From the NCBI RefSeq assembly GCF_046105845.1, contig NZ_CP151004.1: DNA of 64,000 nt; one strand, given 5' to 3'. This DNA is from Escherichia coli. Lineage in GTDB: Bacteria; Pseudomonadota; Gammaproteobacteria; Enterobacterales; Enterobacteriaceae. Positions 26,901 to 29,900 of the stretch are shown piece by piece. Within the stretch, counting starts at the first letter, position 1, and every line of letters starts with the position of its first letter. Made by a program: the position numbers.

Positions 26901-29900
26901 GAAGCAGCTGCAGCACTGGCGGCGGCGAACAAACGTGTATCCAACATTCTGGCGAAATCTGACGAAGTGCTGAGCGACCGCGTGAATGCCTCTACTCTGA
27001 AAGAGCCGGAAGAAATTAAACTGGCGATGCAGGTGGTTGTGCTGCGTGACAAGCTGGAGCCGTACTTTGCGGAAGGTCGTTACCAGGATGCACTGGTCGA
27101 ACTGGCTGAGCTGCGTGAACCGGTCGATGCTTTTTTCGATAAAGTGATGGTAATGGTTGATGACAAAGAATTGCGTATCAACCGTCTGACCATGCTGGAG
27201 AAACTGCGCGAACTGTTCCTGCGAGTTGCGGATATTTCGCTGTTACAGTAATAATGCCGTTATTAAATAGCCTGCCATCTGGCAGGCTTTTTTTATCGCT
27301 AAATAATACAGCAACCTTTAATAATCTTCTGATGAATAAAGATTATCTCATATATTAATTTTATGAGATTTTTTTAGGATTATATCAAGGAGAAGAAACG
27401 AACTTATTAAGCTAGAATAGCCACGGGTGCTTGAGACTGTTTGTCTCAGGTATTCACCGAAAGGCAGACAGAGAAAAGCCCCACCTGACTATAAATCAAA
27501 GTGAGGCCCCTCTATGCATAGACACCATAAGGTTAGCCTCTTACTCGTTGGAAATCAACACAGGAGGCTGGGAATGCCGCAGAAATATAGATTACTTTCT
27601 TTAATAGTGATTTGTTTCACGCTTTTATTTTTCACCTGGATGATAAGAGATTCACTGTGTGAATTGCATATTAAACAGGAGAGTTATGAGCTGGCGGCGT
27701 TTTTAGCCTGCAAATTGAAAGAGTAAGCGTCTTCGGCGGGAAATTATTCCCGCCTTTCTTACGGTGTTGCGCATTCTCATTGCACCCAAATTTATTCTTC
27801 ACAAAAATAACACTAGATTCTATTACGCGATCGATTATTTATTTCCTGAAAAACAAATAAAAAAATCCCCGCCAAATGGCAGGGATCTTAGATTCTGTGC
27901 TTTTAAGCAGAGATTACAGGCTGGTTACGTTGCCAGCTGCCGGGCCTTTAGCGCCGCTTTCGATGGTGAAGGACACTTTCTGACCTTCGTCCAGAGATTT
28001 GTAACCATCGTTCTGGATAGCAGAGAAGTGTACGAACACGTCTTTAGAGCCATCGTCAGGAGTGATGAAGCCGAAGCCTTTGTCAGCGTTGAACCATTTT
28101 ACGATACCAGTCATTTTACCGGACATAGTGTATTACCTTTAATAATTAAGTGTGCCTTTCGGCGATATGGCGTGCTTTACAGATTTTGAAGCGTTAAAGG
28201 AATGTGCACTACGAGGGGTATCAACGATAACTCTTGAAGAGGACTTGCCTTACTACACTGCTTTAATGGTCTGTACGTCAAACCGTTGAGTGCATTAAGC
28301 CACGCATTGGCGGGTGATGCAACAATTATTTTTCATATTTATGATTAATCGGTTGGAAAACGGTCCTGTCATCAGGACCGTAAACAGCAATAAAGTGGAT
28401 AAAAGTCTATTCCATCAACTGCTTACTTAATGCCGGGTTGGCTTGAATCAAACGCATCAATTTTAGTTCGGCACTTGAAGGCTTCACGCGTCTGGATTCC
28501 CATTCCTTTACCATGGCGACTGATACGCCCAAAACCCGGGCGAAATCATCGATTTTTAACCCTGTCCCTTTTCGTAACTGCTCAATTTCGGTACAGGATG
28601 TTGTTCTGTGCGTCAGGGTAATTTTCTGCGTTTCATCTTTAAAAACAATCTGTTCCAGGCTGCTCAACAGCTCATGCATTGGATCTTTATATTCCATTGA
28701 AAACTCCTCAAATCACACTGCGGGATCGTGAATTGCATCGAAGCTCATTAAGAATAGTCGGGAAAAGCAGACACAGCGGGGTGAAGTCAGGGCATGCTCT
28801 GGCTATGATTCGATTCAGCCAGTCATTTAGCGTGACTTATAGCCACCTAACGATCTGATAAATGCCGATATATCTCTTACCACTCCCGGTTTGTAAAGAT
28901 TTCGAAAATCTAACGTTCTGAGAAGGTGTAAATCTCTGGCAACAAAAAAAGCAACGGCACTATCATTTTTTAACAATGAAACAACAAATTAACCTTGTTT
29001 CATTTTCTCCATGATTTTACCAGGAAGATTACGTAGAAAGGGTATCCTGCAAGCCTGTCCTGGACTATCCTTGTCACGTCAGACACGCGTGTGTCGTTGT
29101 GCGCTTTTTTTGGGTGAAAGGAGTAAGAAAATGGCGACAGGAAAGTCCTGCTCTCGCTGGTTTGCGCCTCTTGCGGCGTTATTAATGGTAGTTAGCCTGA
29201 GTGGGTGTTTTGATAAAGAAGGCGATCAGCGTAAAGCGTTTATCGACTTCCTGCAGAATACAGTGATGCGTAGCGGTGAACGTCTACCAACCCTGACTGC
29301 CGATCAGAAAAAACAGTTTGGTCCTTTTGTCTCTGATTACGCGATTCTGTATGGTTATTCTCAGCAGGTGAATCAGGCGATGGATTCCGGTCTGCGCCCG
29401 GTCGTAGACAGCGTTAACGCAATTCGCGTACCGCAGGATTACGTTACGCAAAGCGGCCCACTGCGTGAAATGAACGGTTCTCTGGGCGTACTGGCGCAAC
29501 AGCTGCAAAATGCGAAGTTGCAGGCCGATGCTGCGCACTCTGCGCTAAAACAGAGCGATGACCTGAAACCGGTTTTCGATCAGGCATTCACCAAAGTGGT
29601 AACGACGCCAGCTGATGCATTGCAACCGTTGATTCCGGCGGCACAAACTTTCACGCAACAACTGGTGATGGTTGGAGACTACATTGCTCAGCAAGGTACT
29701 CAGGTGAGTTTTGTCGCAAATGGCATCCAGTTCCCGACTTCGCAGCAGGCAAGTGAATATAACAAACTGATTGCGCCATTACCGGCACAACATCAGGCGT
29801 TTAATCAGGCCTGGACTACAGCAGTTACTGCAACCCAATAAAGAGTAAAAGCCCGGGCGATTATCGGGCTTTACTCCACGCAGTCGCGGCTTAGTCCGCG

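What the first reader, a model, noticed from the sequence alone, without database searches (positions are those of the whole stretch)
27296..27760. hokA locus with no insertion sequence, and an upstream in-frame extension of hok
Seen in sequence: an intact 50-aa Hok ORF with a strong Shine-Dalgarno and a downstream hairpin, with only 322 bp of non-coding DNA between glyS and hokA and no transposase ORF anywhere near. An upstream ATG at 27514 is in frame with hok, and a short ORF from TTG 27548 overlaps the hok start out of frame (a possible mok-like coupling frame). Established knowledge (from memory): in K-12 the hokA locus is disrupted by IS150. Inference: this strain may retain a functional hokA/sokA module. 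I could not confidently place the Sok antisense RNA or the fold-back elements by eye.
Basis: partly seen in the sequence, partly recalled or inferred. Interest (0 to 1): 0.35.

Follow-up and report, generated by a model that had tools for sequence, protein, structure and literature searches.

The report
Intact hokA/mokA/sokA toxin-antitoxin locus
This is the ordinary, uninterrupted version of the E. coli chromosomal hokA toxin / SokA antisense-RNA locus, which about half of sequenced E. coli strains carry and which was described in 1999, so it is real but not new.

Summary
A 50-aa Hok/Gef ORF (27574-27726, identical to K-12 HokA) lies 322 bp after glyS, and there is no IS150 anywhere in the window. 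The state is not unusual: about 2800 of 5426 complete E. coli genomes have the same uninterrupted leader, including Nissle 1917 and the type strain. IS-free hokA loci were described by Pedersen & Gerdes (1999).

The in-frame ATG at 27514 is the start of mokA. K-12 annotates a truncated mokA that shares hokA's stop. The out-of-frame TTG 27548 ORF is not the mok frame.

- hok mRNA start at 27425.
- SokA at about 27523-27468 on the minus strand, with promoter-like hexamers at conserved positions and a terminator hairpin.
- tac, ucb, dcb and fbi.

Predicted folds reproduce the textbook hok switch. The full-length RNA closes by 5'/3' pairing. The 3'-trimmed RNA refolds into tac/ucb plus mok-SD/dcb.

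In K-12, IS150 plus a 39-bp loss removes the mok start, the Sok 5' end and the Sok -10.

"Functional" is only partly supported. The locus is structurally intact and HokA is toxic when overexpressed, but the IS-free E. coli C locus reportedly gave no post-segregational killing. Verdict: already known, low interest.

The parts
27269..27288 (+). glyS intrinsic terminator. It is the boundary of the upstream gene; glyS itself ends at 27251.
   Evidence: Terminator scan; ORF list.
27413..27418 (+). Predicted hokA promoter -10 hexamer, TAGAAT. The -35 is weak or unrecognisable.
   Evidence: It aligns with TATAAT (hokC), TAGGAT (hokB) and TATGAT (R1-type hok). It lies 6 nt upstream of the position matched by Rfam model position 1. 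The promoter scan did not call it. This is an inference.
27425..27790 (+). Predicted full-length mokA-hokA mRNA. The 5' end comes from homology; the 3' end is approximate and lies just after fbi.
   Evidence: The Rfam RF01794 match starts at 27425. The fold of 27425-27795 closes 5' on 3', with MFE -137 kcal/mol and z -8.6.
27425..27436 (+). tac element, GGGUGCUUGAGA. It pairs with fbi in the full-length RNA and with ucb in the trimmed RNA.
   Evidence: The sequence is conserved in hokC, hokB and R1.
27476..27482 (+). ucb, the anti-SD box AAGCCCC. In the full-length fold its GCC (27478-27480) pairs with GGC (27505-27507), which overlaps the mok SD. In the trimmed RNA it pairs with tac.
   Evidence: Folds; Rfam consensus structure.
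27468..27523 (-). Predicted SokA antisense RNA, about 56 nt. It covers the mokA SD and AUG and has a 3' terminator hairpin followed by a U-run.
   Evidence: K-12's annotated sokA remnant maps 35/35 to 27468-27502. The annotated ends of sokC and sokB map through the alignment to 27524/27523 and 27468. Hairpin fold, -27.6 kcal/mol. A 52-bp SokA target is quoted for E. coli C.
27530..27558 (-). Predicted sokA promoter: -35 TTGATT (27558-27553), a 17-nt spacer, and -10 TAACCT (27535-27530).
   Evidence: Read. The positions correspond to TTGCGC/TATCCT in R1-type sok and TTGCCG/TAAGAT in sokB, all around the invariant GCCTCTTAC block. It falls below the threshold of the consensus scan. This is an inference.
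27503..27506 (+). mokA Shine-Dalgarno sequence, GAGG, 7 nt before ATG 27514.
   Evidence: Sequence. It is partly paired with ucb in the full-length fold and with dcb in the trimmed fold.
27514..27726 (+). mokA, a 70-codon leader frame that is in frame with hokA and ends at the same stop.
   Evidence: ORF list. K-12's mokA pseudogene shares hokA's stop. ATG 27514 aligns with the mokB start; the mokC start lies 2 nt away in the alignment.
27536..27540 (+). dcb, GCCUC. It pairs with the mok SD region (27503-27507) in the trimmed mRNA. It sits in the invariant GCCTCTTAC block.
27562..27567 (+). hokA Shine-Dalgarno sequence, AGGAGG.
27574..27726 (+). hokA toxin ORF, 50 aa, with Cys14, Cys29 and Cys46 present.
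   Evidence: Pfam PF01848 at E=1.4e-21. Identical to K-12 HokA. Annotated as hokA in near-identical genomes.
27735..27754 (+). 3' stem-loop, 8 bp. It is the predicted terminal hairpin of the processed (truncated) mRNA.
   Evidence: The role is inferred from R1 hok as described in PMC9841398.
27771..27787 (+). fbi (fold-back inhibition) element, GCAUUCUCAUUGCACCC. It pairs with tac and with the mok AUG in the full-length RNA.
   Evidence: Fold. hokB has the equivalent UCUCAUGGCACCC opposite its GGGUGCCUGAGA.

Best explanation
The locus is the uninterrupted allele of the chromosomal hokA/mokA/sokA type I toxin-antitoxin module of E. coli. Its wide spread across diverse strains suggests it is the ancestral state, but I did not test that with a phylogeny.

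The most likely mechanism, step by step:
1. A weak promoter (-10 TAGAAT at 27413-27418) produces a roughly 365-nt mRNA that starts at 27425.
2. In the full-length RNA, the 5' tac box (27425-27436) pairs with the 3' fbi box (27771-27787). The mokA SD and AUG are sequestered, so the RNA is neither translated nor bound by Sok.
3. Slow 3' trimming back to the hairpin at 27735-27754 frees tac.
4. Tac then pairs with ucb (27476-27482). The mok SD shifts onto dcb (27536-27540), which opens the mokA start region.
5. SokA is a roughly 56-nt antisense RNA (27523 to 27468) made from its own promoter inside the mok/hok leader. It base-pairs across the mokA SD and AUG and triggers decay of the duplex.
6. 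If SokA is lost, ribosomes translate mokA, which here runs in frame into hokA. This allows initiation at the hokA SD/ATG (27562/27574) and production of the 50-aa membrane toxin.

Shown here: every sequence element, the homology, and the two predicted folds. Inferred from R1 hok/sok: transcription, processing, Sok turnover and killing.
For: - Toxin: Pfam HOK_GEF at E=1.4e-21; 50/50 identity to K-12 HokA.
- Leader: the Rfam hok-leader model RF01794 matches end to end at 119 bits.
- Antisense RNA: K-12 annotates mokA and sokA remnants on either side of IS150. The sokA remnant maps 35/35 to 27468-27502. The sokB and sokC ends map to 27523/4 and 27468. There is a terminator-like hairpin.
- Conservation: the promoter -10s, tac, ucb, the mok ATG and the GCCTCTTAC block are conserved against hokB, hokC and R1-type hok.
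- Folds: the full-length fold pairs 5' GGGUGC/UGAGA with 3' GCACCC/UCUCA, z -8.6. The trimmed RNA refolds to tac/ucb plus SD/dcb, z -7.0. This matches the mechanism described in PMC9841398.
- Variation between alleles spares these elements.
- Population: the leader is uninterrupted in 2800 of 5426 complete genomes and 100% identical in Nissle 1917 and ATCC 11775.
- Literature: hokA/sokA of E. coli C is described with a 52-bp Sok target. The HokA peptide is toxic on overexpression.
Against: - There are no expression data for this strain.
- The sokA -10 (TAACCT) and the hok -35 are weak by consensus, and the promoter scan missed them.
- The transcript's 3' end is not defined by a classical terminator.
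- The IS-free hokA of E. coli C is reported not to mediate post-segregational killing and not to be activated by rifampicin. The module may therefore be regulated as described yet never fire.
Confidence: 0.85

Rival explanations
1. The locus is intact in sequence but is a functionally silent relic. The RNAs may be made, but HokA is never released at a lethal level, so there is no toxin-antitoxin behaviour in vivo.
For: A 2026 preprint summarising Pedersen & Gerdes 1999 says that hokA from E. coli C could not mediate post-segregational killing and was not activated by rifampicin. The hok promoter has no recognisable -35. About half of E. coli genomes tolerate loss of Sok and mok through IS150.
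Against: tac, ucb, dcb, fbi, both SDs and the toxin's three cysteines are kept across divergent alleles. The ST131 IS150-bearing allele does show decay: the hok -10 changes from TAGAAT to TGGAAT, 1 nt is deleted before the ATG, and fbi is altered. This contrast suggests constraint on the intact allele. It rests on one decayed allele; another IS150-bearing allele (L003) keeps these elements. HokA is toxic when expressed.
Confidence: 0.4
2. The short ORF from TTG 27548 (frame of 27431-27604) is the mok-like coupling frame.
For: It overlaps the hok start out of frame, which is the arrangement of mok in R1 and of mokB in hokB.
Against: - It has no SD and starts at TTG.
- It lies downstream of the predicted Sok target, so Sok could not control it.
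- The annotated mokB start aligns to window 27514, and the mokC start aligns 2 nt away, at 27516.
- K-12's mokA pseudogene is in frame with hokA and shares its stop, as mokC does with hokC.
Confidence: 0.03
3. The 70-aa ORF from ATG 27514 is the real protein product, a longer Hok, rather than a leader frame that serves only for translational coupling.
For: It is a single uninterrupted frame that contains the whole Hok domain.
Against: hokA has its own strong AGGAGG SD. The 20 extra codons are the most variable part of the locus between alleles. In R1 only the act of mok translation matters, not the Mok product.
Confidence: 0.07

Closest known systems
hokA/sokA of E. coli C and other IS-free wild-type strains (Pedersen & Gerdes 1999, Mol Microbiol 32:1090; cited)
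   Same: Same chromosomal site (glyS-hokA-cspA), same genes and no IS. The leader is 100% identical to Nissle 1917 and ATCC 11775.
   Different: Nothing of substance was found. I could not retrieve the E. coli C sequence itself for a base-by-base comparison.
K-12 MG1655 hokA locus (hokA b4455, mokA b4647 pseudogene, sokA b4614 pseudogene, IS150 insJK)
   Same: Identical HokA protein. The flanks are about 98% identical.
   Different: K-12 has a 1443-bp IS150 between window positions 27502 and 27542 and lacks 27503-27541. That stretch holds the mok SD and ATG, the first ~20 nt of SokA and the sokA -10.
hok/sok (parB) of plasmid R1
   Same: Same parts list (hok, mok, Sok, tac, ucb, dcb, fbi), and the predicted conformational switch is the same.
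   Different: - Chromosomal rather than plasmid-borne.
- mokA is in frame with hokA (60 nt between the two starts). In R1 and hokB, mok is out of frame (58 nt).
- The 5' hairpin is shorter.
- Post-segregational killing is not demonstrated.
hokC (gef)/mokC/sokC of E. coli K-12
   Same: mok is in frame with hok and shares its stop. The 5' end is the same, GGGTGCTTGAG.
   Different: Different chromosomal site. In K-12 its 3' end is cut by IS186.

Membership tests
[quoted passage not shown] | Small (~50 aa) hydrophobic Hok/Gef-family toxin ORF | tested here: met
   PF01848 at E=1.4e-21 and 76 bits against a cut-off of 22. Identical to K-12 HokA.
[quoted passage not shown] | Upstream overlapping mok frame whose start region is the antisense target | tested here: met
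   ATG 27514 with a GAGG SD. It aligns with the mokB start, and the mokC start lies 2 nt away. It matches K-12's mokA annotation and lies inside the predicted SokA complement. Translational coupling itself cannot be tested here.
[quoted passage not shown] | Cis-encoded short antisense RNA (Sok) with its own promoter and terminator, opposite the leader | tested here: met
   Met at sequence level only. The K-12 sokA remnant maps 35/35. The sokB and sokC ends map to 27523/4-27468. Hexamers TTGATT-17-TAACCT lie at the conserved position. There is a terminator-like hairpin. Expression was not tested.
[quoted passage not shown] | Long-range 5'-3' pairing (tac/fbi) that locks the full-length mRNA | tested here: met
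   In the MFE and centroid folds of 27425-27795, nt 1-6 and 8-12 pair with 27782-27787 and 27775-27779. z = -8.6.
[quoted passage not shown] | Refolding of the 3'-trimmed mRNA to tac/ucb and mok-SD/dcb | tested here: met
   Fold of 27425-27757. The Rfam RF01794 consensus structure is matched end to end. This is in silico only.
[quoted passage not shown] | Killing when Sok decays (post-segregational killing, or rifampicin-induced) | not testable with these tools
   The literature summary says the IS-free hokA of E. coli C was negative in both assays.
IS150-disrupted hokA allele (K-12 type) | IS150 between the sokA 3' part and hokA | tested here: not met
   No IS150 end anywhere in the window. 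The alignment to IS-free genomes is contiguous.

The most novel reading that the evidence does not exclude
IS150 sits in the SokA/mok-SD overlap in two different alleles: opposite orientations, with left junctions within about 2 nt of each other at 27501-27503. Together these account for roughly 48% of complete E. coli genomes. This could mean one of two things. Either the intact hokA module, as in this window, is active and costly in nature, so that knock-outs are repeatedly selected. Or this leader DNA is a specific IS150 target hotspot.
Probability: 0.25. Interest if true: 0.35.

Novelty: already known. Interest (0 to 1): 0.1.

Why it matters
It matters little beyond correct annotation. It shows that this strain carries the complete hokA/mokA/sokA module. 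K-12 lacks a complete copy, so this allele, not K-12's, is the one to use for any functional test of chromosomal hokA. The one modestly interesting by-product is the population picture: about half of E. coli genomes are intact, and the other half carry one of two IS150 alleles at the same spot.

Tried and rejected
- The Rfam 'sok' hit lies on the plus strand, the hok-sense strand. It therefore models the hok leader and does not itself locate the antisense RNA. I placed SokA by homology to annotated sokA, sokB and sokC instead.\n- A permissive Rfam scan of 27250-27900 gave nothing else above gathering score.\n- The consensus promoter scan found neither the hok nor the sok promoter. Both placements rest on alignment.\n- The TTG 27548 ORF was rejected as the mok frame.\n- I could not read Pedersen & Gerdes 1999 or the Fozo 2008 review, because they are not held. 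Statements about E. coli C come second-hand.\n- I did not fetch the E. coli C genome, because I had no coordinates for it.\n- A search for papers linking IS150 to hokB/sokB returned nothing useful. My recollection that IS150 hits hokB/sokB in the long-term evolution experiment is therefore unverified.

Full report
**What is there**

glyS ends at 27251 and is followed by its terminator at 27269-27288. After an A/T-rich spacer comes a complete hok-family locus, and cspA converges from the other side (Rfam cspA thermoregulator at 27859-28287 on the minus strand). The ORF 27574-27726 encodes a 50-aa peptide that matches Pfam HOK_GEF at E=1.4e-21. It is identical to K-12 HokA and contains Cys14, Cys29 and Cys46. 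AGGAGG lies 6 nt before the ATG. No transposase ORF is nearby, and no IS150 end occurs anywhere in the 64-kb window.

**Comparison with K-12**

MG1655 annotates hokA, a mokA pseudogene that shares hokA's stop, IS150 (insJK), and a 35-nt sokA pseudogene on the far side of the IS.

- The sokA remnant maps 35/35 to window 27468-27502.
- K-12's right flank resumes at 27542.
- K-12 therefore has IS150 and also lacks 27503-27541. That stretch holds the mok SD (GAGG 27503-27506), the mok ATG (27514), the first ~20 nt of SokA and the sokA -10.

**How common the IS-free state is**

- 2830 of 5426 complete E. coli genomes align contiguously over 27150-27950.
- 2800 of 5426 align across a 100-bp probe spanning both K-12 junctions. 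These include 100% matches in Nissle 1917 and the type strain ATCC 11775.
- O157:H7 genomes are also contiguous.

The literature already records IS-free hokA in E. coli C and in NRG857c. It attributes the K-12 inactivation to Pedersen & Gerdes 1999.

**The mok question**

ATG 27514 opens a 70-codon frame that runs into hokA.

- In a four-way alignment with hokC, hokB and an R1-type hok locus, the annotated mokB start falls on window 27514 and the mokC start 2 nt away.
- mokC is in frame with hokC and shares its stop. The same holds for K-12's mokA remnant.
- mokB and R1 mok are out of frame, with 58 nt between the two starts.

The in-frame extension is therefore mokA. It is a known feature, not an oddity. 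The TTG 27548 ORF has no SD and lies downstream of the Sok target, so it is not the coupling frame.

**Placing Sok**

The Rfam 'sok' family matches the hok-sense strand at 27425-27576. It models the leader, not the antisense RNA. I placed SokA by homology instead.

- The annotated ends of sokC and sokB project onto 27524/27523 (5' end) and 27468 (3' end). The 3' end agrees with K-12's sokA remnant.
- Upstream on the minus strand lie TTGATT (27558-27553), a 17-nt spacer and TAACCT (27535-27530).
- These occupy the same positions as TTGCGC/TATCCT in R1-type sok and TTGCCG/TAAGAT in sokB, around the invariant block GCCTCTTAC.
- The RNA folds into a long hairpin followed by a U-run.
- A 52-bp SokA target is quoted for E. 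coli C.

The promoter hexamers are below the threshold of the consensus scan, so this placement is an inference.

**The mRNA switch**

The full-length RNA (27425-27795) folds with its 5' GGGUGC and UGAGA paired to GCACCC (27782-27787) and UCUCA (27775-27779). The mok AUGC pairs with GCAU (27771-27774), and the ucb pairs with the mok SD region. The MFE is -137 kcal/mol and z is -8.6.

When the RNA is cut back to just after the hairpin at 27735-27754, the 5' end pairs instead with AAGCCCC (27476-27482). The mok SD region GAGGC pairs with GCCUC (27536-27540). z is -7.0.

These are the tac/fbi to tac/ucb plus SD/dcb rearrangements described for R1 hok.

**Integrity relative to other alleles**

I aligned this locus with six other alleles. 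Variable sites cluster in the first mok codons (27513-27525), in a few hok codons and in 3'-UTR loops. tac, ucb, dcb, both SDs and both promoters are unchanged in the IS-free alleles. An ST131 allele that carries IS150 shows a hok -10 change (TAGAAT to TGGAAT), a 1-nt deletion just before the hok ATG and an fbi change. These look like decay after inactivation. Another IS150-bearing allele (L003) keeps those elements, so this is one example only.

**Is it functional?**

At sequence level, nothing is broken. HokA peptide is toxic when overexpressed. However, a 2026 survey summarising Pedersen & Gerdes 1999 states that IS-free hokA from E. coli C did not mediate post-segregational killing and was not activated by rifampicin. 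The module is structurally complete, and its activity is unproven and possibly nil.

**Verdict**

This is a real, correctly identified and fully explained locus that is already known. The only mildly new material is the population picture of IS150 alleles, listed among the side observations. Interest is low.

Noticed in passing
window 27499-27542; loci L002, L003, L008, L009, L011: There are two distinct IS150 alleles at the hokA leader among complete E. coli genomes. In the K-12 type, IS150 is antisense to hok, with junctions at 27502 and 27542 and 39 bp lost; the junction probe matched about 1644 genomes. In the ST131 type, IS150 is in the hok sense, with target duplication AAG or AAGTG at 27499-27503; about 1133 genomes. 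The two counts overlap slightly. One strain (L009) also has IS1 inserted next to IS150, with a 9-bp duplication AGGCTACCC. Both IS150 alleles hit the SokA/mok-SD overlap.
   Followed up: partly
locus L008 (ST131), aligned to window 27414, 27573 and 27781: The IS150-bearing ST131 allele carries further changes: hok -10 TAGAAT to TGGAAT, a 1-nt deletion before the hok ATG, and a change in fbi. This is consistent with decay after inactivation.
   Followed up: partly
window 27703-27774 (-): A 23-codon ORF antisense to the hokA 3' end and its 3' hairpin corresponds to ysaE of K-12 (annotated 'hypothetical protein' in other strains). An analogous small ORF, yncP, lies antisense to the 3' end of hokB in K-12 (L006).
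   Followed up: no
window 53496-53561 and 53979-54044 (-); ORFs ending at 53717 and 54200 (+): There are two tandem ldr/rdl type I toxin-antitoxin copies next to a 559-aa ORF: two Rfam rdlD hits and two 35-aa Ldr peptides that differ by one residue. From memory, K-12 has a single ldrD/rdlD at this site. I did not check this.
   Followed up: partly
locus L010 (strain E09) 1152-1599, corresponding to window 27800-27855: One strain has an insertion of about 450 bp between hokA and cspA that carries a 372-bp ORF annotated 'yidD'.
   Followed up: no
window 27425-27576 (+): Rfam RF01794, named 'sok antitoxin', matches the hok-sense strand and ends at the hok AUG. It describes the hok mRNA leader rather than the antisense RNA. 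This is a trap for strand assignment.
   Followed up: yes
window 45161-45405 (+) and 45499-45580 (-): tRNA-Pro (CGG) is followed by an RtT-family repeat element, and a naRNA4 hit lies nearby. These look like ordinary E. coli features.
   Followed up: no
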